Origin: a virus | Strand: one strand, 5' to 3' | Virus genome (UHGV): UHGV-0333408 | DNA length: 15,640 nt | Notes under the pieces: model-generated | Databases searched by the model: none | Told to the model about the DNA's origin: nothing | The model's input: only the letters and a program-made list of their open reading frames with translations | Part shown: in pieces, positions 1 to 12,825 of the stretch | How the letters are laid out: every line of letters starts with the position of its first letter | Numbering within the stretch: position 1 is the first letter of the stretch | Position numbers and translations under genes: made by a program

Positions 1-120
1 ATATCGAATGTGATTACAATCGGTGGCGGCGGCACAGTTGGTGTGGCGGCCTCAGTCCGGAACAATTTGAAAACAAGAACCTCGCTTAGGCCTGTGTCCA
101 TATTACGTGGGTAGGATCAT

Positions 121-419
121 AATGCGCTGAACTGTGCAGGATGCGAGCTGATTTTTGAAGACAAGATAAGCGGCACAAAGTCCGAAAGGCCGGGACTGAA
201 AAAACTGCTCAGGACATTATCGGCAGGTGACACTCTGGTTGTCTGGAAGCTGCTCGCGCACAGGGACGAATTGGTGGACGTCGTCCCAAACTTACACCAG
301 AACAATGGGCGCAGGCCGGGCGATTAATTGCATCAGGCGTTCCTCGCCAGAAGGTGGCGATCATCTATGATGTTGGTATATCGACACTGTATAAGAAGTT
401 TCCGGTCGGAGATAAATGA
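121..419 (+). pseudogene. Remnant of a Pin/Hin/Gin-family DNA invertase (serine recombinase): N-terminally truncated, with an internal out-of-frame deletion
   Basis: Frame A (121-252) reads NALNCAGCELIFEDKISGTKSERPGLKKLLRTLSAGDTLVVWKL, matching the N-terminal domain of Pin-type invertases from about residue 21. Frame B (about 253-419) reads ARAQGRIGGRRPKLTPEQWAQAGRLIASGVPRQKVAIIYDVGISTLYKKFPVGDK, matching the C-terminal HTH. A stop at 112-114 lies immediately upstream in frame, so the catalytic-serine N-terminus is missing, and about 55 codons between the two blocks are absent with a frame change. Confidence 0.8.
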
Positions 420-439
420 AACCGTAGCACGTCGTATGC
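402..439. repeat. Imperfect direct repeat, copy 1 (CCGGTC..GAAACCGTAGCACGTCGTATGC)
   Basis: Found by eye. Copy 2 at 1436-1468 shares CCGGTC, GAAA(A)CCGTAG, (A)CAC and GTATGC in the same order, about 26 of 33 positions. The two copies bracket the GIY-YIG gene. Confidence 0.5.
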
Positions 440-479
440 AAGAAGATCGTGCTGCGGTTTATGCTTATCACTTAAAGAC

Positions 480-1298
<819 letters not shown>

Positions 1299-1435
1299 TC
1301 ATTGCAAGGGCTCACAACCAGTAGTGTTGAGAAAACCATCGGAGAAATGAGGCTAAGCCTTTGAATTTACATAGTACAAAAAAGATACTTTTCCTCATAA
1401 TGTGAGCTAATTTTATGTTTCGTTTGATGATTGGA

Positions 1436-1468
1436 CCGGTCTCGAAAACCGTAGACACATAGTATGCG
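1436..1468. repeat. Imperfect direct repeat, copy 2
   Basis: See copy 1 at 402-439. Confidence 0.5.
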
Positions 1469-1659
1469 TTAATTTATGAACAAACTACTTGTCTGCTGTT
1501 TTTCTGTCATTAGCCGTATATAGAATGATTCTCTATGCCTAACAAAGCATCACCAGTGCTAGATTACGTTGTAGTCACTGTTTAAATATCCAGATAAAAC
1601 ATTTCCTTCTGGGTTGAATGAGTGATAAAGTTTCACCCATTAGACCCCTTGGAGGAATT

Positions 1660-3093
1660 ATGTCTGAATTTGAAGTGTTGGCACAGCATCTGCTGAAGGA
1701 AGCCGAGGCGGAAGAAAAGCTGCGACAGGAAAATGATAAAAAGCTTATCGAGAAAGTGCTGGAAATCTATGATCAGAAGTATGTGGCTGAATTACTGAGA
1801 AAAGTCGGAAAAAATGAGTGGAGCCGTGAAACCATTAACCGCTGGATTAATGGCAAGTGTTTACCAAAATCGTTGACTTCAGTAGAAGAGTCTCTTCTGC
1901 GTAAGATGCTACCAGAACCACCTGCAAACCATCCGGAATATGCTTTCCGCTTCATTGACTTATTTGCTGGAATTGGAGGGATACGGAAAGGTTTTGAGGC
2001 CATTGGAGGCCAGTGTGTTTTTACCAGTGAATGGAATAAAGATGCTGTGCGTACATACAAGGCCAACTGGTTTAACGATGAACAGGTGCATAAATTCAAT
2101 CTCGATATTCGGGAAGTCACGCTGAGTGATAAAACCGATGTATTGGAAACGGATGCTTATGCATATATTGATGAGCATGTGCCGGATCATGATGTGCTTC
2201 TTGCGGGGTTCCCGTGCCAGCCATTTAGCCTTGCTGGTGTTAGTAAGAAAAACTCACTTGGTCGTGCGCATGGTTTTGAATGTGAAGCACAAGGAACACT
2301 TTTTTTTGACGTGGCACGTATTATACGAGCAAAAAAACCGGCAATTTTTGTGCTGGAAAATGTCAAAAATCTGAAGAGCCATGATAAGGGTAAAACTTTC
2401 AAAGTCATTATGGAGACCCTTGACGAGCTGGGCTACGAAGTTGCCGATGCTGCAGAAATGGGAAAAAACGATCCAAAGATTATCGATGGGAAGCATTTTT
2501 TGCCTCAGCATCGTGAACGCATTGTTCTGGTCGGATTTAGACGAGATCTGAATATTCACAAGGGGTTTACCTTGCGTGATATCAGTCGTTTTTATCCGGA
2601 ACACCGCCCATCATTTGGTGAATTGCTGGAGCCTGTAGTCGACAGTAAATATATACTTACGCCAAAACTATGGGAGTACCTTTATAACTACGCCAAAAAG
2701 CATGCAGCCAAGGGGAATGGTTTTGGCTTTGGGTTGGTCAATCCTGAGAATAAGGAAAGCATTGCACGCACACTTTCTGCCAGATATCACAAAGACGGAT
2801 CAGAAATTCTTATTGATCGTGGTTGGGATATGGCAACGGGAGAGGCTGACTTTATGAATGAGAGTAATCAGGCTCGTCGACCACGCAGGCTGACTCCCCG
2901 AGAGTGCGCACGCCTTATGGGATTTGAAAAACCTGGAGGGAAACCATTCCGTATTCCGGTTTCAGATACTCAGTCATATCGGCAGTTCGGTAACTCAGTT
3001 GTGGTGCCAGTATTTGAAGCTGTTGCCAGACTTCTGGAACCCTATATCCTCAAAGCTGTTTCTGCTGATGCTGGTAAGACTGGGCAGCCTTGA
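1660..3093 (+). CDS. ecoRIIM: DNA (cytosine-5) methyltransferase, Dcm / M.EcoRII-like (CCWGG family), 477 aa
   Basis: C5-methyltransferase motifs are present: [15 protein letters not shown] (motif I), [11 protein letters not shown] (motif IV, catalytic Cys), ENV (motif VI), [10 protein letters not shown] (motif X). The whole protein is near-colinear with E. coli Dcm as I recall it. The start is placed at the ATG at 1660 (GGAGG four nt upstream) rather than the first in-frame ATG at 1618 (no SD), giving 477 aa, the length I recall for M.EcoRII. Confidence 0.92.
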
Positions 3094-3099
3094 GAACAT

Positions 3100-3122
3100 C
3101 TCCCGGCCTTTTAAGCCGGGAG
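3100..3122. terminator. Stem-loop between the convergent M and R genes (CTCCCGGC-cttttaa-GCCGGGAG)
   Basis: An 8-bp perfect inverted repeat lies exactly between the two stop codons (3091-3093 and 3128-3130). There is no clear U-tract on either side, so function as a terminator is inferred from position only. Confidence 0.4.
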
Positions 3123-3127
3123 TCAGC

Positions 3128-4342
3128 CTATGATAGTTCAGCGTAAAGCTCTATCAGCTCAGTAATGAATGCTCCGAGCGTTATTAATTCTTCTCTAACT
3201 GCTTCTGGGTATTTTTTATGTAAAGTTGATGGTACAACGAGTCTGACACCCGCATCTTTCATTTCTCGGTATTGTGCTGAAGAAACACCTTCTTGCAGTG
3301 TAAATAAATGTACCTGATGGATTTTATCTGCTTCATTCAGTATCTGACGCCAGCGATCTTTGCAGGTGGTCTTTACTGCCAGCATACGTAAGTTTTCTAC
3401 AGGAAATTCAACGTTATGATATGCCTCTGCTGAAGGAAACAGGAAATCTGGTTTTTTATTACCTTCAGTAACTGCCTGAGTGGAGAAATGCCGTAGTCCG
3501 TGCTCGATAAAAAGCTTCTCTAGGTGAAGTTCAAGTGATTTGCCTGCCCTTGATTTACGTCGATTACTGACAGAGTTGGCTAATGCAATAAACTCATCTA
3601 CAGAATCGAATCCTTTCTTAATAATATCAAGAACATGTAATTCCTCGACGAGTAGAAAAATATCATACTCGACACGCCGACGGTCAATCAGTTGCTCATC
3701 TGGATCCTTGGAGTTTTTAGCATAATGGCCAGCAGCATATTGAATAATTTCGTTTCCAGAAGGAAAACGCTTCTTCCAGTCTTCAGGAATAACATATTTA
3801 TGATTTACTGGAGTTTGCTGAAGAGACAATCCGCCCAAAATTTGTCCGGCAGGGCCGGAAATTAGGGTTCCAGGTATGATTTCGCCAATAGCAGACTCGA
3901 TGATATCCTCTTCATCGGGATTGACGCAGACCCATATATCTACCTCGGAACAGTCAGTGTTCTGTTCGTTTAACCTGAAAGCAAGAATTGTGAGGGCTCC
4001 TGTATTTTCAGGGTTCTGTAATGGACTTCCTCTCCCCCAGCGCGTAATTCTTTTTTCGTTTCGGGTCTTACCAAAATAACGGTTGTTGTAATAAATTGCG
4101 CGTGCTTGGGTATCAGGGCAATCATGGGATGATACATGCGCAGTAAGGAAGACTGAAGGGTTCAGTTCGCGAGTATGATTGATAGATGGAAAAAGCTTTT
4201 CAACGATATTTGAGGGGATATAAAGTCCGACCTGATGGCCACCTGTTGCGCCTGTGTCGTTTGCAGAAAGGCGTTTGATGTAGATAAAGTAATTCCCGCT
4301 TGCGATATCAAGCAGCCAGTTATGAAAAACCGACATATACAT
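3128..4342 (-). CDS. ecoRIIR: Type IIE restriction endonuclease, EcoRII-like, 404 aa
   Basis: 404-codon ORF convergent with the Dcm-like gene. Numbering from the first ATG puts Asp299 in KPDFLF, Lys324 in LAVKTT and Glu337 in ILNEADK, which are the catalytic residues I recall being published for EcoRII. The length equals the recalled 404 aa. A better Shine-Dalgarno (AAGGGA) serves the ATG two codons downstream at 4336, so the start is ambiguous by two codons. Confidence 0.88.
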   Translation of the reverse strand: MYMSVFHNWLLDIASGNYFIYIKRLSANDTGATGGHQVGLYIPSNIVEKLFPSINHTRELNPSVFLTAHVSSHDCPDTQARAIYYNNRYFGKTRNEKRITRWGRGSPLQNPENTGALTILAFRLNEQNTDCSEVDIWVCVNPDEEDIIESAIGEIIPGTLISGPAGQILGGLSLQQTPVNHKYVIPEDWKKRFPSGNEIIQYAAGHYAKNSKDPDEQLIDRRRVEYDIFLLVEELHVLDIIKKGFDSVDEFIALANSVSNRRKSRAGKSLELHLEKLFIEHGLRHFSTQAVTEGNKKPDFLFPSAEAYHNVEFPVENLRMLAVKTTCKDRWRQILNEADKIHQVHLFTLQEGVSSAQYREMKDAGVRLVVPSTLHKKYPEAVREELITLGAFITELIELYAELS

Positions 4343-4412
4343 CCCTTTGTTAACATACAGTCAGGGTTAACATTTTTCCATAGTTATAGATAAGCGGCTA
4401 GGAACTTAAGGG

Positions 4413-4447
4413 AAAAACAAAAAGCCCGCATAAGCGGGCTTTTGTGT
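4413..4447. terminator. Bidirectional rho-independent terminator (AAAAAGCCCGC-ataa-GCGGGCTTTTG)
   Basis: A 6-bp GC stem with a 4-nt loop, flanked by an A-run on the 5' side and a T-run on the 3' side, so it can terminate on both strands. It sits between the att core and the R gene start, insulating the R gene from read-through out of the prophage. Confidence 0.7.
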
Positions 4448-4570
4448 CACTCGAGAGCCGCGGCTCCTTTGCGTATCCTTTTTTGTCTCCTCACCGTCTG
4501 GTCGGTGTCCTGCTGAGACTGCTAACTTCCTGTTTTTGTTGGTGTTGTCCTTACACCGTCCAATCATGAT

Positions 4571-4607
4571 TGGTGGAGCTGGCGGGAGTTGAACCCGAGT
4601 CCGAAAT
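4571..4607 (-). other. 37-bp copy of the 3' end of tmRNA (ssrA), one mismatch; putative prophage att core (attL-type junction)
   Basis: The + strand reads TGGTGGAGCTGGCGGGAGTTGAACCCGAGTCCGAAAT. This is the reverse complement of the E. coli ssrA 3' terminus (...ATTTCGGACGCGGGTTCAACTCCCGCCAGCTCCACCA) with a single C-to-A change. No tmRNA body follows, because 4615-5439 is protein-coding, so this is a partial att-type duplicate and not the gene. Confidence 0.8.
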
Positions 4608-4614
4608 AATTTAA

Positions 4615-5439
4615 CTATTTGTTTTTATTGTAATCGTGTTCATTTATAAAATCTGCGTAGCTTTTGCGTATCCTTTGACGTATTGCAGCAGTCCTACTTT
4701 TATTGAGCTTTTTAAACGTAAAGCTTGCGACATAGTCTATTGAACCATTAAAAGTCTGCGAGTCGACCAATGCGACTTCGGTTTCAAATAATTCAACAAT
4801 ATGTTTACCACCAATATCTTGATATTTTATTTCTAACATTGGTCCTTTAGTTTTATAAATATCGATTTGACCCTTAAGGTTTAGCATTATATCGTTCATT
4901 AAAAAGACTAAGGAAAGTGTTTGAAATTTTAGCTCAGCCTTTGTTTTTTCTACACTGTATGGTAAAAAACATTGTATGAATTCACTTTCCTTATTAATTA
5001 TATGTGTCATCATTCGGAGGTTGCTTCTTGAATAAAAGATTAGGTCGTTGTCACTTTCTTCAAAATGATAATTAAATAAAAATCTAGATGGGTCGGCTGG
5101 AGCTTCAGCGGAATTTAATTTATATAGCCTCTGCTGAAGATATTGTGCATATTCTTGGTGGTTGAAAATCCATTTATACTCGATATTTACAGCAGCACCT
5201 AATCCCGGATTTATTACATTGATTTTATATTCGTTATAAGTATTCCCATTTAAAATGTCTAAATCAAAGTCGTTTTTTACATTGCATTTACCTTTGAAGT
5301 GAAAATTTTGAGGTATGATCTGTGGTCTATACATACTTCTTCTCTGCATTATGGCTTGATAAATACCACAAGCAGCAAGAAATGCTGATATCATTGCAGC
5401 AATGCTGGAAACTACAGCTATCCATCGATCTAAAGTCAT
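4615..5439 (-). CDS. Hypothetical membrane-anchored protein (274 aa), AT-rich moron between att core and int
   Basis: Uninterrupted ORF. One predicted N-terminal transmembrane helix (WIAVVSSIAAMISAFLAACGIY) is followed by a basic stretch (QRRSMYRPQ), suggesting a cytoplasmic C-terminal domain. GC content is visibly much lower than the flanking prophage backbone. No motif I recognise. Confidence 0.7.
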   Translation of the reverse strand: MTLDRWIAVVSSIAAMISAFLAACGIYQAIMQRRSMYRPQIIPQNFHFKGKCNVKNDFDLDILNGNTYNEYKINVINPGLGAAVNIEYKWIFNHQEYAQYLQQRLYKLNSAEAPADPSRFLFNYHFEESDNDLIFYSRSNLRMMTHIINKESEFIQCFLPYSVEKTKAELKFQTLSLVFLMNDIMLNLKGQIDIYKTKGPMLEIKYQDIGGKHIVELFETEVALVDSQTFNGSIDYVASFTFKKLNKSRTAAIRQRIRKSYADFINEHDYNKNK

Positions 5440-5476
5440 AATGAAATCTCTGCCTAAAAGAGACAGAGATTATTTG
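5440..5476 (-). terminator. Hairpin between the int stop and the downstream membrane-protein gene
   Basis: On the minus strand: AATCTCTG-(loop)-CAGAGATT followed by TTTCATT. The position immediately after int fits a terminator or processing site, but the hairpin is weak. Confidence 0.3.
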
Positions 5477-6652
5477 TTATTTTTTGATTGTTTTCAATGC
5501 ATTTGCTGATGTGTTGTTATCGTAATCCTTTAGATACCTACCATAGTGCCTAAATAGCATTTCAGGCCCTTTATGACCCATTTGAGCCGCCAACCAGAAT
5601 AAGTTCACACCACGACTGATTTGTCGAGTCGCGAAGGTATGGCGTGTTTGGTATGGATTTCGGTACCGAATACCAGCCTTTCGCAATGTTGGCACCCATG
5701 CTTTTTTTCTAATTGCATCAGCACTTGCCCAGGGCTTATTGGTCTTTGGATCTTCAAAGACAGTAGCATCCTTCATGAATGTAAATGGCTTCTGGTTTAT
5801 CAACGCCAACATTGCTTCTTCAGTCAGTTCAACTTTACGGGTACCGGCTTTTGTCTTTGTCCCTTTGATAACACCAACAACACTTGCGCTCTGGACATGG
5901 GCAGTTTTCCCAACAAAGTCGATATCTCGCCATCGAAGGGCACATAATTCAGAACTACGCAGGCCTGTATGTATAGCGAACCGGAACAGATTTTCCCATT
6001 GTTTGTTTGCGGCTGCTGCTAGTAATGCATCAACTTCTGCTGGTGATAGCGGATCAACCACGTAGCTGCTTTCTGCTTCTGACTTATCACTTTGGTAGCG
6101 CGAAGCAGTTACTAACGATACGGGGTTAATTTGAAGTACCCCATCGGTCACGGCTTCATCAAGTGCTGACCGCAGGAAAGATAACTGGTTGCGAATGGTT
6201 TTTAAGGTAGTTTTCTGGCTTTGAATCCACGCTTTCAGGGTTGCTGGTGTTAATTCACTTGCAGGGCAAATGTGAAGTGAGGCTAACGCACTACGGCATT
6301 TTTTATAACCACCAATCGTAGAGGGTGAAAGTTTTCTTGTTTCGCAGATTTCAAGATATTCGTCTAGGTACATTTTTACCGTTTTGCCTGCAGCAGCATT
6401 ACCAAAAATTTTCAAACGAGCAGAACTGGGAAAATATTCCGCATAAATGAATGTTCCCCTTTCGATCTTATTATGAATTTCGCCGAGTGTGCGCTCGGCG
6501 TATTTAATGTTCTTTGGTGTTACTTCCAGATTGGAAAGAGGCTCACGACATTTAACACCTTTGTAGGTGAAAGTTATATTGATCGTTTCGCCCTGGCGGT
6601 GTTTCCTGATTGTTACGCCGCGCGGTAGTTTGAGCAGTTTTGTCTGGCCCAT
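5477..6652 (-). CDS. int: Tyrosine-type site-specific integrase (lambda Int family), 391 aa
   Basis: The C-terminal catalytic region has the conserved RHTFAT and FRHYGRY (tyrosine nucleophile) blocks. GAGG lies 8 nt upstream of the ATG. The gene reads toward the ssrA-derived att core, with an excisionase-like gene overlapping its 5' end, as in lambda. Confidence 0.93.
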   Translation of the reverse strand: MGQTKLLKLPRGVTIRKHRQGETINITFTYKGVKCREPLSNLEVTPKNIKYAERTLGEIHNKIERGTFIYAEYFPSSARLKIFGNAAAGKTVKMYLDEYLEICETRKLSPSTIGGYKKCRSALASLHICPASELTPATLKAWIQSQKTTLKTIRNQLSFLRSALDEAVTDGVLQINPVSLVTASRYQSDKSEAESSYVVDPLSPAEVDALLAAAANKQWENLFRFAIHTGLRSSELCALRWRDIDFVGKTAHVQSASVVGVIKGTKTKAGTRKVELTEEAMLALINQKPFTFMKDATVFEDPKTNKPWASADAIRKKAWVPTLRKAGIRYRNPYQTRHTFATRQISRGVNLFWLAAQMGHKGPEMLFRHYGRYLKDYDNNTSANALKTIKK

Positions 6653-6819
6653 TTTGCAACCTCACTAAGATCAATCCACCTCTCCTTAACGCCTTCAACC
6701 TTTAAAACCTGAACACCTTCACGCCAAACACCGCGCTGTACACGTTTGTTTATTGCTTCAGGAGTTTCGCCAGTTTCTTTGCAATAAGTTGAGATAGGAA
6801 CACAATCGAGGTTCAGCAT
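6613..6819 (-). CDS. xis: Excisionase-like small DNA-binding protein (68 aa)
   Basis: Small ORF immediately upstream of int, overlapping it by 40 bp (lambda xis and int overlap in the same way). GGAG lies 6 nt upstream of the ATG at 6819. The ORF track begins at a GTG at 6831. Confidence 0.6.
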   Translation of the reverse strand: MLNLDCVPISTYCKETGETPEAINKRVQRGVWREGVQVLKVEGVKERWIDLSEVAKWARQNCSNYRAA

Positions 6820-6878
6820 ATGTTTCTCCACTTAGCCCGCTGCACATGGGCAGTAATATCAAATTCCAGTCCTGATAA

Positions 6879-7094
6879 TTAATTTTGTTCTCTGGTTGCT
6901 ACTTGTTTTATTGGCCTGATGCTGTCCAGTAGCAGACGGCGACGCATGTTAGGTGCACCCCAACGGTAACCAGTCTTTTTGTCGTAGGATTCACAACGTC
7001 CGGCAACCCAGGACGTTTCAGTGGAATGTAATTTCATCCGCTTTTCACCGTCTCGGGTGATAACAATTCCTGTATGAGTTTTTATCACGCTCAT
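6879..7094 (-). CDS. Hypothetical prophage protein (71 aa)
   Basis: ORF whose start overlaps the stop of the upstream gene (ATGA-type coupling). No recognisable motif. Confidence 0.5.
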   Translation of the reverse strand: MSVIKTHTGIVITRDGEKRMKLHSTETSWVAGRCESYDKKTGYRWGAPNMRRRLLLDSIRPIKQVATREQN

Positions 7095-8107: not shown

Positions 8108-8932
8108 TCAGGCGGTGAAAGTACCAATAAAGGTTTCTACTTTGCTGTCCTTGAATTTCTCAACAAGCAGATCACGAAATTCGTTAGCCATTTCTTCCTG
8201 CACCGCCTCCAGCTGAATAATGCGCAGAACCAGTACCGGACGATCGCCAGTGATAATGCTGAGGCGTAATTTAAACGGACGTTCTTTCAGACCTTCAAAC
8301 GGAATGCATTTAAATTCAAATGCCACTGGCATAATGTCTTTGGTCTTCGCTTCGACAGACTCCATCAGGGAGCGTTTGCCGCTGAAGTCATTATCTTCAA
8401 AATCAGCGGTCTGGTTTGCTTCAATCGTGATTTTACGGACCGCCGCAGCCGCTTTTGTTGCCTGAATGGTGTCACCATTAGCATCAAAGCCCACAAGGTA
8501 GTCGGCCCAGTCTTCAATCCATTCTGCCAGTGATTTCTGGGAGTTACGCTCGCCATTAACAGACAACAGAGCAGAGAACGGTGCTGTCTTTTTCAGTTTG
8601 AGAGTGGCGGTGTTATCTGCGTGACCTGGTTCATCAATAGTACCCAGGTTAAGCACACTGACGGCACGCATATTATCAGCATCGATAAAGCAGCGGGTGC
8701 CTTCATCTGCAAGATCTTTAGAATAACGGGTAAAGTCATCGATGCTGGCAGTGGAAAGCGCACCACGGAAACGGAAGCGATTTAAATTAAATTTTTCCAG
8801 ATCATGAATGCGGAAATTCTCAGGCAATGCCACAGCATCGGCACCAATCTTACTGATAATTTCATTAACACCCTGAGCAGAAATAAGGGCATGGATTTGA
8901 TTAATTGCGGTTGCGTCTAAGTTCTGAGACAT
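8108..8932 (-). CDS. yfdQ: Conserved prophage protein, DUF2303 / YfdQ-like (274 aa)
   Basis: Uninterrupted ORF with an RBS. Length and position (upstream of the HD-domain gene) match the yfdQ-yfdR arrangement I recall from K-12 CPS-53. Function unknown. Confidence 0.6.
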
Positions 8933-11677: not shown

Positions 11678-12825
11678 ACAGTTTAACGGCAAATAACCGT
11701 TTGTCGCAACAACCGGTGGTCAGCGTCGCTGAACACCGGTTGTTATGGCATGAATGCAGATTACCAAATCACCTGGCTGTAAGTAACCACAGAGAACTTT
11801 ACCTGACTGTGGGGGGCGAGTTGTGCAGGAACTTAACCGCTGGTTTCGTGACGGAAGAGGACTTTATGTTCATGTTATTCGTTGGGAGCCAGAAACACAG
11901 CGCGTTATCTATCTTCGCAAAGACTACCCGCATGAGTGCTTTAGTCCTTTGTGGAAATTCAGGCGTGATTTTGTTGAGTGTGAAGGACCACCAGCACATT
12001 GATTCTGCCATTCCGGGACGTTACACTGTTCAGGCACCTTATAAAACGGGTGCCGGGCGTGGAAACCCGGAATTCACCAAAGCGCACAACCGCGCTCTTG
12101 CGGTTTTTTTGTGTCATGAGCAGCATTACGCCCAAATTATGGTGGGGCGTGCAGGGCCAACTTCGGTTGGGCCGGGTTCTTTGGTGACCGGTATTTCCAC
12201 CCCTGTACGTCTCACCACCAATAAGGTCGTGGAAAGCCTTGGTGGTGAGTTATTAAAAATCACCAAAGAGGCTGCCATCATGGCTACGATCCCAACCCTC
12301 ACTCAACCTGAAATTGCCATCGTTGATGGTCAGGCTGTTACTTCATCCTTGGCTGTTGCCAACTTCTTCTCCAAACGTCATGACGATGTACTGAAAAAGA
12401 TCCGCACGCTTGAATGCTCAGCATCATTCACTGCCCGCAATTTTTCGGTGAGTGATTACACTGATTGCACAGGTCGCAAACTTCCTTGCTACCAAATCAC
12501 ACGCGACGGTTTTGCGTTTCTTGCTATGGGTTTCACGGGTAAACGTGCTGCCCAGTTCAAGGAGGCATACATCAATGCCTTTAACCAGATGGAGAAACAG
12601 CTTTCAAAGCCCTCTGTACCGAGCGACGTTGCACATAACGCCAGCGTTCTCTGTTCCTACATTTCATCAATTCATCAGGTCTGGCTGCAGCAGCTTTATC
12701 CTATGTTGGCAAAAGCCGAATCTCCGCTGGCTGTTAGCTTGTATGACTATATTAATGATGCTTCGGCACTGGCCTGCCTCATAAATTTGTCGCTGAACCC
12801 TTCAGAGGTATGGGGGCGCAAATGA
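11674..12825 (+). CDS. Rha-domain phage regulatory protein (383 aa as read; N-terminal ~200 aa of uncertain coding status)
   Basis: The C-terminal ~180 aa (from the ATG at 12280, which has AAGAGG upstream) reads as a Rha / ORF6N-type domain (PTLTQPEIAIVDGQAVTSSLAVANFFSKRHDDVLKKIR ... ITRDGFAFLAMGFTGKRAAQFKEAYINAF). The N-terminal 200 aa has atypical composition, and an alternative-frame ORF exists at 11823-12002. Confidence 0.6.
   Translation: MNSLTANNRLSQQPVVSVAEHRLLWHECRLPNHLAVSNHRELYLTVGGELCRNLTAGFVTEEDFMFMLFVGSQKHSALSIFAKTTRMSALVLCGNSGVILLSVKDHQHIDSAIPGRYTVQAPYKTGAGRGNPEFTKAHNRALAVFLCHEQHYAQIMVGRAGPTSVGPGSLVTGISTPVRLTTNKVVESLGGELLKITKEAAIMATIPTLTQPEIAIVDGQAVTSSLAVANFFSKRHDDVLKKIRTLECSASFTARNFSVSDYTDCTGRKLPCYQITRDGFAFLAMGFTGKRAAQFKEAYINAFNQMEKQLSKPSVPSDVAHNASVLCSYISSIHQVWLQQLYPMLAKAESPLAVSLYDYINDASALACLINLSLNPSEVWGRK

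What the first reader, a model, noticed from the sequence alone, without database searches (positions are those of the whole stretch)
4615..5439. AT-rich single-gene moron for a membrane-anchored protein wedged between the prophage att core and int
A 274-aa ORF with one N-terminal transmembrane helix and a ~240-aa domain with no motif I recognise sits in the 870 bp between the ssrA-derived att core (4571-4607) and the integrase stop (5477). Its stop codon is only 8 bp from the core. Its GC content is visibly far below the surrounding prophage, suggesting separate acquisition. The att-int junction is a known hotspot for anti-phage cargo, and membrane-anchored single-gene systems there typically act in superinfection exclusion or abortive infection. 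The tight abutment to the core also raises the question of where the integrase arm sites are.
Basis: partly seen in the sequence, partly recalled or inferred. Interest (0 to 1): 0.75.

Follow-up and report, generated by a model that had tools for sequence, protein, structure and literature searches.

The report
Uncharacterised membrane protein in prophage defence hotspot
A real, AT-rich gene for a membrane-anchored protein of unknown function sits in the slot between a prophage's integrase and its attachment site, where sister phages carry known anti-phage systems or nothing at all, so it is a good but untested candidate for a new single-gene phage-defence family.

Summary
ORF 4615-5439 (-) encodes a 274-aa protein with one N-terminal TM helix. 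It lies between a 37-nt copy of the ssrA 3' end (4571-4607) and int (5477-6652). Its GC is 32.5% against 44% for int.

The gene is a moron. It is under purifying selection (dN/dS 0.10-0.14) and has its own conserved sigma70-like promoter. It is also polymorphic: of 58 prophages with the same integrase, sampled through the integrase, 15 carry a family member. Six are empty. The rest carry other AT-rich cargo, including AbiL, DarT1-NADAR and a PtuA/AriA-like ATPase. The slot is therefore a demonstrated defence hotspot.

The protein belongs to PHROG 7259, function unknown. The wider family has 878 clusters and has no Pfam, NCBIfam or PADLOC match and no detectable PDB fold relative. Relatives occur in prophages, integron-type cassette arrays and islands. 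Charge distribution places the beta-rich domain in the cytoplasm.

Two 11-nt repeats (AAAGGAKMCGY) lie in the ORF's last 20 codons, where they encode the conserved RIRKSYA, and a second pair lies in the P' arm.

An anti-phage function is inferred, not shown (about 0.5).

The parts
4615..5439 (-). Cargo gene: 274-aa protein with an N-terminal TM anchor, a beta-rich domain and a C-terminal helix. Member of PHROG 7259.
   Evidence: (phrog_7259, E 4.5e-51, full length). AF2 pLDDT 79, pTM 0.70. dN/dS 0.10-0.14.
5350..5424 (-). Codons for the TM helix (about residues 6-30). It contains the family-invariant S18, A22, Q28 and, just after it, Q32/R33.
   Evidence: K+R count is 3.6 after the helix and 0.2-0.6 before it in 67 of 69 family members, implying N-out/C-in.
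5469..5497 (-). Sigma70-like promoter of the cargo gene: -35 TTGAAA (5497-5492), 17-nt spacer, -10 AATAAT (5474-5469). The -35 lies in the last int codons and the int stop codon lies in the spacer.
   Evidence: 10 of 12 matches. TTGnnn-17-(A/G)ATAAT in all 20 distinct alleles, with variable spacer sequence. Activity not tested.
5445..5471 (-). Hairpin between the -10 and the start codon. Its 3' arm (AGGCAGAGAUU) carries the SD-like purines 6-16 nt before the ATG.
   Evidence: dG -11 to -19 kcal/mol and z -3.4 to -7.7 in 15 of 15 alleles, with different stem sequences; 4 of 5 consensus pairs show compensatory changes.
4655..4676 (-). P-arm pair of 11-nt direct repeats (AAAGGATACGC at 4676-4666, AAAAGCTACGC at 4665-4655). 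These are candidate integrase arm-type sites, read as codons R-I-R-K-S-Y-A of the cargo protein.
   Evidence: third codon positions conserved; the same pair at the same distance from the core in every cargo class, including empty sites.
4612..4629 (-). AATAAAAACAAATAGTTA block covering the last four sense codons, the stop codon and 3 nt beyond. It is conserved at the DNA level. Possibly a bending-protein (IHF-like) site; this is inference only.
   Evidence: codons -5 to -3 have third positions 0.95 conserved; a related A-rich block occurs in other cargo classes.
4571..4607 (-). Copy of the ssrA 3' end (att core region). The T at 4598 would break a T-arm pair, so this is the non-functional copy.
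   Evidence: No tmRNA gene in the window.
4416..4570 (-). P'-type arm with a second pair of repeats (AAAGGATACGC at 4481-4471, AAAGGAGCCGC at 4470-4460) and a terminator (4420-4443).
   Evidence: The same sequence follows ssrA at attL in L014 and lies in the attP of free phage LLS. Terminator. Exact repeat matches.
5477..6652 (-). Tyrosine integrase with an N-terminal arm-binding domain.
   Evidence: PF12167 at 4.6e-23 and PF00589 at 3.6e-17. It is 86-97% identical to the integrases of 80 IMG/VR prophages.
6613..6831 (-). Probable excisionase (72 aa), overlapping the int start.
   Evidence: Assigned by position only. The syntenic LLS gene 33 is annotated 'putative excisionase'. No family hit.

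Best explanation
The window shows the junction of two tandem prophages at E. coli ssrA. The right-hand prophage ends with xis-int, a cargo cassette, the P arm and an ssrA 3' copy.

The cassette is one allele of a single-gene moron that occupies a variable cargo slot between int and attP. It carries its own sigma70 promoter, overlapping the end of int. A hairpin follows the promoter. Read-through int transcripts would contain the whole hairpin, which would mask the ribosome-binding site or end the transcript. Transcripts from the gene's own promoter would start inside the 5' arm and lack the hairpin. The gene could therefore be expressed in the lysogen independently of int (inferred).

The product is anchored in the inner membrane by one N-terminal helix (N-out, C-in). 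A roughly 210-aa beta-rich cytoplasmic domain has diverged to 22-34% identity between alleles. The last 20 codons are fixed because they are also the integrase's two P-arm binding repeats.

The most likely function is prophage-encoded protection of the lysogen against other phages (inferred). The variable cytoplasmic domain would recognise a phage component. The conserved, small-residue and glutamine-bearing TM helix would act at the membrane, either by abortive membrane perturbation or by blocking DNA entry from the inner face.
For: Tandem junction: the left flank (1-4607) is 99.6-99.9% identical to the P' end of a complete ssrA prophage in other E. coli (pinE, GIY-YIG, MTase, EcoRII-type REase, P' arm, ssrA).

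The cargo is phage-borne: free phage LLS has xis, int, a family member, attP and a P' arm.

The slot is variable. In 58 int-anchored loci, 15 carry the family, 6 are empty and the others carry different AT-rich cargo. These include AbiLi (4e-101) with AbiLii (3e-29), DarT (2e-13) with NADAR-DarT1 (1.4e-89), and a PtuA/AriA/GajA-like ATPase (1e-20).

Allele reassortment: against L002, int is 96-100% identical in nucleotides but the ORF only 36-52%. Against L003, the ORF is 92-99% identical but int only 73-88%.

The gene is real: dN/dS is 0.10-0.14.

Promoter and hairpin are conserved with covariation and are specific to this cassette.

Topology: positive-inside rule in 67 of 69 sequences. P0104 (signal peptide plus extension) and P0140 (an extra upstream TM after a KK-rich stretch) agree with it.

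Arm repeats.

The family occurs in other mobile contexts: the first gene after an integron-type integrase in Shewanella, cassette-like arrays in V. parahaemolyticus, a Serratia prophage beside xis-int, and an island with BrnT/HigB.

Against: Location in a hotspot is only circumstantial, since hotspots also carry non-defence cargo. Close alleles show purifying, not positive, selection, so an arms race is not demonstrated. The promoter and the transcription start are predictions, and the overall promoter count in the region is at chance level. The hairpin could simply be the int terminator. Binding of Int to the repeats is not shown.
Confidence: 0.5

Rival explanations
1. It is a lysogenic-conversion or fitness gene unrelated to phage defence, for example a membrane-associated modulator of host physiology, stress tolerance or envelope processes. 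It rides in the same cargo slot.
For: Cargo slots next to att also carry non-defence morons. There is no match to any defence model. Purifying selection in close alleles and no recognisable effector motif fit this reading. One distant relative sits next to an acyltransferase_3 gene in Psychromonas rather than in an obvious mobile element.
Against: The recognisable alternative occupants of this exact slot are defence or TA systems. The family is sporadic, AT-rich, highly divergent and tied to prophages, integron-type arrays and islands. This is the usual signature of conflict genes.
Confidence: 0.25
2. It is an accessory of the integration module itself, for example a membrane-tethered regulator of Int/Xis or of att-site choice. 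On this view its fixed position and its conserved C-terminus reflect a recombination function.
For: In all 33 loci recovered through the gene, it directly follows this integrase, and in every locus where the core could be scored except L001 its stop codon lies a fixed 21 nt before the core's TTCAAC. Its C-terminal codons coincide with the arm repeats.
Against: That sample was biased, because the loci were found through the gene. Prophages with the same integrase are empty or carry unrelated cargo in 43 of 58 int-anchored loci and keep the same arm repeats. Distant relatives lack the C-terminal tail and sit beside other integrase types or in cassette arrays. The conserved C-terminus is explained by DNA-level constraint: third codon positions are fixed in codons -21 to -15.
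Confidence: 0.05
3. It is a classical superinfection-exclusion protein that blocks genome entry of incoming phages without killing the cell, like P22 SieA, T4 Imm or lactococcal Sie2009. This is a sub-variant of the defence reading.
For: It has a single-pass inner-membrane anchor and is encoded next to int, as are Sie2009 and Ltp in Gram-positive phages (established knowledge, not tested here). A constitutive-type promoter is present.
Against: The bulk of the protein is predicted to be cytoplasmic, whereas several entry blockers act from the periplasmic face. There is no similarity to SieB or any other Pfam family. Sequence alone cannot separate this reading from abortive infection.
Confidence: 0.2

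Closest known systems
PHROG 7259 (phage protein family of unknown function)
   Same: Full-length profile match (residues 4-274 to profile positions 6-277, E 4.5e-51).
   Different: The family has no assigned function, so membership says nothing about mechanism.
Cargo ('moron') hotspots next to attP/int in temperate phages and satellites, such as lit between att and intE in e14 and the P2/P4 defence hotspots (established knowledge)
   Same: The slot has conserved flanks (the int 3' end and the arm repeats). Its AT-rich content is interchangeable and includes AbiL, DarT1-NADAR and an ABC-type ATPase, and empty sites exist.
   Different: This hotspot belongs to the ssrA-targeting Arm-DNA-bind_2 integrase module of lambdoid and Mu-tail phages. 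The cassette boundary lies inside the last ~10 codons of int. The cargo's 3' end overlaps the arm repeats.
Membrane-anchored prophage exclusion/abortive proteins (P22 SieA/SieB, lambda RexB, lactococcal Sie2009, S. thermophilus Ltp)
   Same: A single small gene in the lysogeny region with an N-terminal membrane anchor, expected to be expressed in the lysogen.
   Different: No sequence or profile similarity. The protein is larger, with a ~210-aa beta-rich domain predicted to be cytoplasmic and no detectable solved fold relative.
Lambda-type attP architecture (core flanked by arm-type Int sites; tI/sib hairpin after int)
   Same: The integrase has an arm-binding N-domain. Tandem direct repeats at about one helical turn lie in both arms. 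A hairpin directly follows int.
   Different: The repeat consensus AAAGGAKMCGY is unrelated to the lambda sites. The P-arm pair lies in coding sequence: in the cargo gene here, and at the int stop codon in empty sites. Here the hairpin lies between the cargo gene's -10 and its start codon.
'Brigantia', a single-gene transmembrane anti-phage cassette of the V. cholerae chromosomal integron (bioRxiv 10.1101/2024.07.02.601686)
   Same: A single gene with a TM domain and no known domain, carried as an integron cassette. Relatives of ORF274 also occur in integron-type arrays.
   Different: The relationship is untested, because the sequence was not retrievable. No hit in the family searches is labelled V. 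cholerae.

Membership tests
PHROG 7259 | Full-length match to the family profile | tested here: met
   E 4.5e-51, 174.8 bits, residues 4-274 against profile positions 6-277 of 277.
Moron (independently expressed accessory gene in a phage genome) | Own promoter, separate from neighbouring operons | tested here: met
   TTGnnn-17-(A/G)ATAAT is conserved in 20 of 20 alleles despite a variable spacer. This is a prediction only; no transcript data.
Moron (independently expressed accessory gene in a phage genome) | Base composition distinct from the surrounding phage genes | tested here: met
   GC 0.325 against 0.439 for int. The same holds for all alleles (0.31-0.35).
Moron (independently expressed accessory gene in a phage genome) | Present or absent among otherwise closely related phages | tested here: met
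   15 of 58 int-anchored loci carry it, 6 are empty and the others carry different cargo. mEp460 shares the early region at 97.7% identity but not this module.
Known anti-phage defence systems (PADLOC-DB v2) | Profile match to a catalogued defence protein | tested here: not met
   0 families at E up to 1.
Known anti-phage defence systems (any) | Reduces phage plating or propagation when expressed | not testable with these tools
   Needs cloning and phage challenge.
Defence hotspot occupant | The same slot in sister elements holds recognised defence systems | tested here: met
   AbiLi/AbiLii, DarT with NADAR-DarT1, and a PtuA/AriA/GajA-like ATPase.
SieB / other Pfam or NCBIfam exclusion and Abi families | Pfam or NCBIfam domain match | tested here: not met
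   No Pfam family at E up to 0.1 and no NCBIfam family at E up to 0.01. Ten distant relatives also have no credible Pfam match; only P0140 gave hits (E 0.027-0.071), all below the curated cut-offs.
Lambda-type attP with arm-type sites | Integrase carries an N-terminal arm-binding domain | tested here: met
   PF12167 Arm-DNA-bind_2, E 4.6e-23, residues 10-77.
Lambda-type attP with arm-type sites | Repeated short sites in both arms, distinct from the core and conserved across relatives | tested here: met
   AAAGGAKMCGY pairs at 4655-4676 and 4460-4481. These include the only three exact matches in the window. The same pair sits at the same distance from the core in all cargo classes and in phage LLS.
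Lambda-type attP with arm-type sites | Int N-domain binds these repeats | not testable with these tools
   Needs EMSA or footprinting.

The most novel reading that the evidence does not exclude
ORF274 may be a founding member of a large, uncatalogued family (878 clusters at 50% identity, mostly Gammaproteobacteria) of single-protein, membrane-anchored anti-phage immunity factors. On this reading a cytoplasmic domain without a detectable solved fold relative serves as an allele-specific sensor and a conserved TM helix serves as the effector. The family would spread as a swappable cassette through prophage int-attP hotspots and integron arrays. In the ssrA phages the cassette is wired so that its 5' end shares sequence with the end of int (promoter plus insulating hairpin) and its 3' end doubles as the integrase arm sites.
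Probability: 0.35. Interest if true: 0.7.

Novelty: new member of a known kind. Interest (0 to 1): 0.55.

Why it matters
If the gene does protect lysogens, it adds a compact, single-gene, membrane-anchored defence family that current catalogues miss. The family has hundreds of divergent alleles ready for specificity mapping.

Whatever the function, the locus is a clean, well-delimited defence hotspot in ssrA-integrating coliphages. Its left anchor is the int 3' end, its right anchor is the arm repeats, and empty sites are known. It can be mined for further unknown systems: several other occupants also have no annotation.

The locus also shows how cargo can be inserted without disturbing site-specific recombination. 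The arm-type sites are kept at a fixed distance from the core and are simply read through as coding sequence.

Tried and rejected
1. Gene-anchored synteny (33 of 33 loci with int directly upstream) first suggested a universal part of the int module. I rejected this as ascertainment bias after the int-anchored sample.
2. The genome-contig scans were useless. The peptide patterns found no relative. The DNA pattern GATACGCAAAAGCNNCGCNGA hit only unrelated taxa by chance.
4. Literature searches by accession and PHROG number, and by ssrA/exclusion terms, found nothing. The phage LLS paper does not discuss gene 31. The Brigantia sequence could not be retrieved.
5. The first repeat definition, TACGCARA, was refined to the 11-nt unit AAAGGAKMCGY after comparison across cargo classes. 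With 2 mismatches allowed the pattern is at chance level in the window; only the exact copies are informative.
6. The 277-aa gene next to ssrA at the other prophage end in L014 is unrelated. None of the alternative cargo ORFs is a family member.
7. The RNAalifold consensus on the MAFFT alignment recovers only 5 pairs, because loop lengths differ. Per-sequence folds are the better evidence.

Full report
**1. The observation**

The minus strand of 4615-5439 is an ATG-initiated ORF of 274 codons. Its stop codon (4615-4617) lies 7 nt from 4571-4607. That segment is the reverse complement of the last 37 nt of E. coli ssrA, with one mismatch at 4598 that would break a T-arm pair. Neither ARAGORN nor Rfam finds a tmRNA gene in the window, so this is the displaced copy.

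Upstream lies int (5477-6652, minus strand), with an Arm-DNA-bind_2 domain (E 4.6e-23) and a Phage_integrase domain (E 3.6e-17). GC is 0.305-0.335 over the ORF and 0.455-0.47 on both sides.

**2. The setting: two prophages in tandem**

Window 1-4607 is 99.6-99.9% identical to several complete E. coli genomes. In strain EC21Z-147 the same stretch is the right end of a complete prophage with a Mu-like tail. The order there is tail fibre genes, pinE, a GIY-YIG protein, a Dcm-type methylase, an EcoRII-type endonuclease, about 155 nt with a terminator, and then intact ssrA.

To the right of the ssrA copy the window carries the ORF, int, a probable xis, and early genes. These early genes are 97.7% identical to phage mEp460 from position 7047 onward. 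mEp460 lacks this int module.

The 155 nt left of the ssrA copy (4416-4570) also follow ssrA at the other end of a related prophage (L014). They also lie in the attP of the isolated phage LLS. The window therefore shows: prophage A (P' end) | ssrA copy | prophage B (P arm, cargo, int). The repeat that flanks such prophages is about 190 bp, not 37 bp.

**3. The gene is real and belongs to a large unnamed family**

It matches PHROG 7259 (unknown function) over its full length (E 4.5e-51). It has no hit in Pfam, NCBIfam or PADLOC. Close relatives (46-100% identity) come from Citrobacter, Kluyvera and unnamed assemblies. Relatives at 22-34% identity come from E. coli, Salmonella, Citrobacter, Klebsiella aerogenes and Raoultella.

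A profile search of 1.84 billion representatives finds 878 clusters at E<=1e-3 and 255 at E<=1e-10. Nearly all are 240-290 aa. None of ten sampled distant members has a credible Pfam domain; only P0140 gave hits, all below the curated cut-offs.

Close allele pairs give dN/dS of 0.14 and 0.10, so the protein is under purifying selection.

**4. The protein**

AF2 on a 28-sequence alignment gives pLDDT 79 and pTM 0.70. The model has a helix at residues 2-36, then a mainly beta domain with three helices, then a low-confidence C-terminal helix at 249-268.

Lys+Arg counts are 3.6 in the 15 residues after the hydrophobic helix and 0.2-0.6 before it, in 67 of 69 family members. One relative has a signal peptide plus an extension before the helix. 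Another has an extra upstream TM preceded by a KK-rich stretch. All of this points to N-out/C-in, so the large domain is cytoplasmic. This is inferred from the positive-inside rule.

Invariant positions are S18, A22, Q28, Q32, R33, P39, Q40, an NxGxGxAxN motif (77-85), P160, YxD (206-208) and RKSY (258-261). This is not a recognisable catalytic set. Conservation is highest in the TM and juxtamembrane part and in the last 20 residues, and lowest in between.

**5. The slot is a cargo hotspot**

My first sample was found through the gene, and it showed int directly upstream in all 33 loci. That result is biased. I therefore sampled 80 IMG/VR prophages through the integrase (86-97% identity).

Of 58 loci with enough sequence after int, 15 carry a family member. 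Six loci have the ssrA copy only 70-82 nt after the int stop and so are empty. The others carry unrelated cargo of 1.2-2.5 kb in either orientation. All of it is 31-44% GC.

Recognisable occupants are:
- AbiLi (E 4.2e-101) with AbiLii (3.2e-29);
- DarT (2.1e-13) with the DarT1-associated NADAR antitoxin (1.4e-89);
- a 595-aa ATPase resembling PtuA, AriA and GajA (1.1e-20);
- a DUF4325 STAS-like protein (8.1e-15) beside an unannotated 307-aa protein.

Several occupants have no annotation. None is a member of the TM family.

The integrase tail after ...YLKEYD differs by cargo class, so the left boundary of the cassette lies inside the last ~10 codons of int. Alleles and integrases reassort. Against L002, int is 96-100% identical in nucleotides but the ORF only 36-52%. 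Against L003, the ORF is 92-99% identical but int only 73-88%. All family alleles are 31-35% GC, so low GC is a property of the cargo class, not a sign of recent arrival.

**6. Where the arm sites are**

The last ~20 residues (QRIRKSYADFINEHDYNKNK) are almost invariant even between alleles at 25% identity. At the DNA level, codons -21 to -15 and -5 to -3 are fixed in their third positions too. Codons -14 to -6 show ordinary wobble with the amino acids kept. Both DNA-level and protein-level constraints therefore act here.

The fixed DNA contains two 11-nt direct repeats, AAAGGATACGC (4676-4666) and AAAAGCTACGC (4665-4655). A second pair, AAAGGATACGC AAAGGAGCCGC (4481-4460), lies on the other side of the core. 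The three exact matches to AAAGGAKMCGY in the whole window are these.

The same pair sits at the same distance from the core in every cargo class. It is also present in empty sites, for example AAAGGAGCCGT AAAGGAGCCGT starting at the int stop codon. Phage LLS has related repeats.

Since the integrase has an arm-binding domain, these are the best candidates for its arm-type sites. Binding is not shown. In the TM family the repeats are translated as R-I-R-K-S-Y-A.

**7. Expression signals**

All 20 distinct alleles have TTGnnn, exactly 17 nt of variable sequence, then (A/G)ATAAT. In the window this is -35 at 5497-5492 and -10 at 5474-5469. The int stop codon lies inside the spacer.

A hairpin starts at the end of the -10 (5471-5445). 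It is stable in 15 of 15 alleles (dG -11 to -19 kcal/mol, z -3.4 to -7.7), with different stem sequences and compensatory changes. Its 3' arm holds the SD-like purines 6-16 nt before the ATG.

A start about 7 nt after the -10 (near 5462) would fall at the end of the 5' arm. The inference is as follows. Read-through int transcripts would fold the hairpin, which would mask the ribosome-binding site, end the transcript or protect its 3' end. Transcripts from the gene's own promoter could not fold it. Other cargo classes have their own hairpins after int but not this promoter.

**8. Function**

Several lines favour a prophage-encoded anti-phage role. The gene is a stand-alone, lysogen-type unit in a slot shared with Abi and TA systems. 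The family is sporadic, AT-rich and highly divergent. Relatives occur as the first gene after an integron-type integrase (Shewanella), in cassette-like arrays with Imm33-like and Barstar genes (V. parahaemolyticus), beside xis-int of a different integrase type (Serratia), and in an island with BrnT and HigB.

The cytoplasmic position of the variable domain and the conserved small and polar residues of the TM helix suggest sensing inside the cell and action at the inner membrane.

None of this has been tested, and I put the probability at about 0.5. Rival readings are a non-defence conversion gene (0.25) and an integration accessory (0.05). The integration-accessory reading is contradicted by the empty sites.

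**9. Comparison and verdict**

The kind of thing is known: a moron in a phage hotspot next to att, as with lit in e14 or the P2/P4 hotspots (established knowledge). The family is uncharacterised, and no membership in a catalogued defence family could be shown.

The added findings are the delimitation of the hotspot, the candidate arm repeats embedded in coding sequence, and the promoter-hairpin arrangement. Interest is moderate (0.55). It would rise if a phenotype is found.

Noticed in passing
window 1-4570: The left flank is the P' end of a second ssrA prophage. It holds a pinE fragment, a GIY-YIG protein (480-1253, -), a Dcm-type methylase (1618-3093, +) and an EcoRII-type endonuclease (3128-4342, -). 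The R-M pair therefore occupies the other att-adjacent cargo position, and the window spans a tandem prophage junction.
   Followed up: yes
window 12034-12222 (+): Rfam finds isrK (67.9 bits) and a C4 antisense RNA (83.6 bits) side by side in the early region. This is the arrangement that controls antirepressor expression in P1/P7-type immunity. Relatives carry Rha/ANT genes nearby.
   Followed up: no
window 7047: A mosaic joint. From here rightward the window is 97.7% identical to phage mEp460 and to several Stx phages. These have a different integration module, so the int-cargo-attP block moves as a unit.
   Followed up: partly
window 5477-5510 and L066-L145: The last ~10 codons of int after the conserved YLKEYD differ according to which cargo follows. 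In empty sites the arm repeats begin at the int stop codon. Cargo exchange therefore rewrites the integrase C-terminus.
   Followed up: partly
L059 7001-7732; L064/L065 33-746: Distant family members are the first gene after an integron-type integrase in Shewanella algae. In Vibrio parahaemolyticus they sit in cassette-like arrays with Imm33-like and Barstar genes. This suggests the family also travels as integron cassettes. attC sites were not checked.
   Followed up: partly
L012 (K. aerogenes) 6001-6813: A family member survives in a decayed remnant next to smpB/ssrA. There the integrase is reduced to a 127-aa fragment beside an IS3 transposase. This hints at retention of the cargo after the prophage has decayed.
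   Followed up: no
L067, L071, L077, L091, L095, L133 (int-attP slot): Several alternative occupants of the hotspot have no Pfam or PADLOC match. Examples are a 271+129-aa pair, a ParA-like 283-aa protein with 137- and 221-aa partners, 307/378-aa proteins paired with DUF4325, and a 272-aa multi-TM protein. All are further candidate systems.
   Followed up: partly
window 4406-4567 (-): The 53-aa ORF listed here lies wholly inside the conserved P'-type arm and terminator region. It is probably not a gene.
   Followed up: no
window 8108-8932 (-): A second ORF of exactly 274 aa. By synteny with relatives it is the YfdQ/DUF2303 protein and is unrelated to the cargo gene.
   Followed up: no
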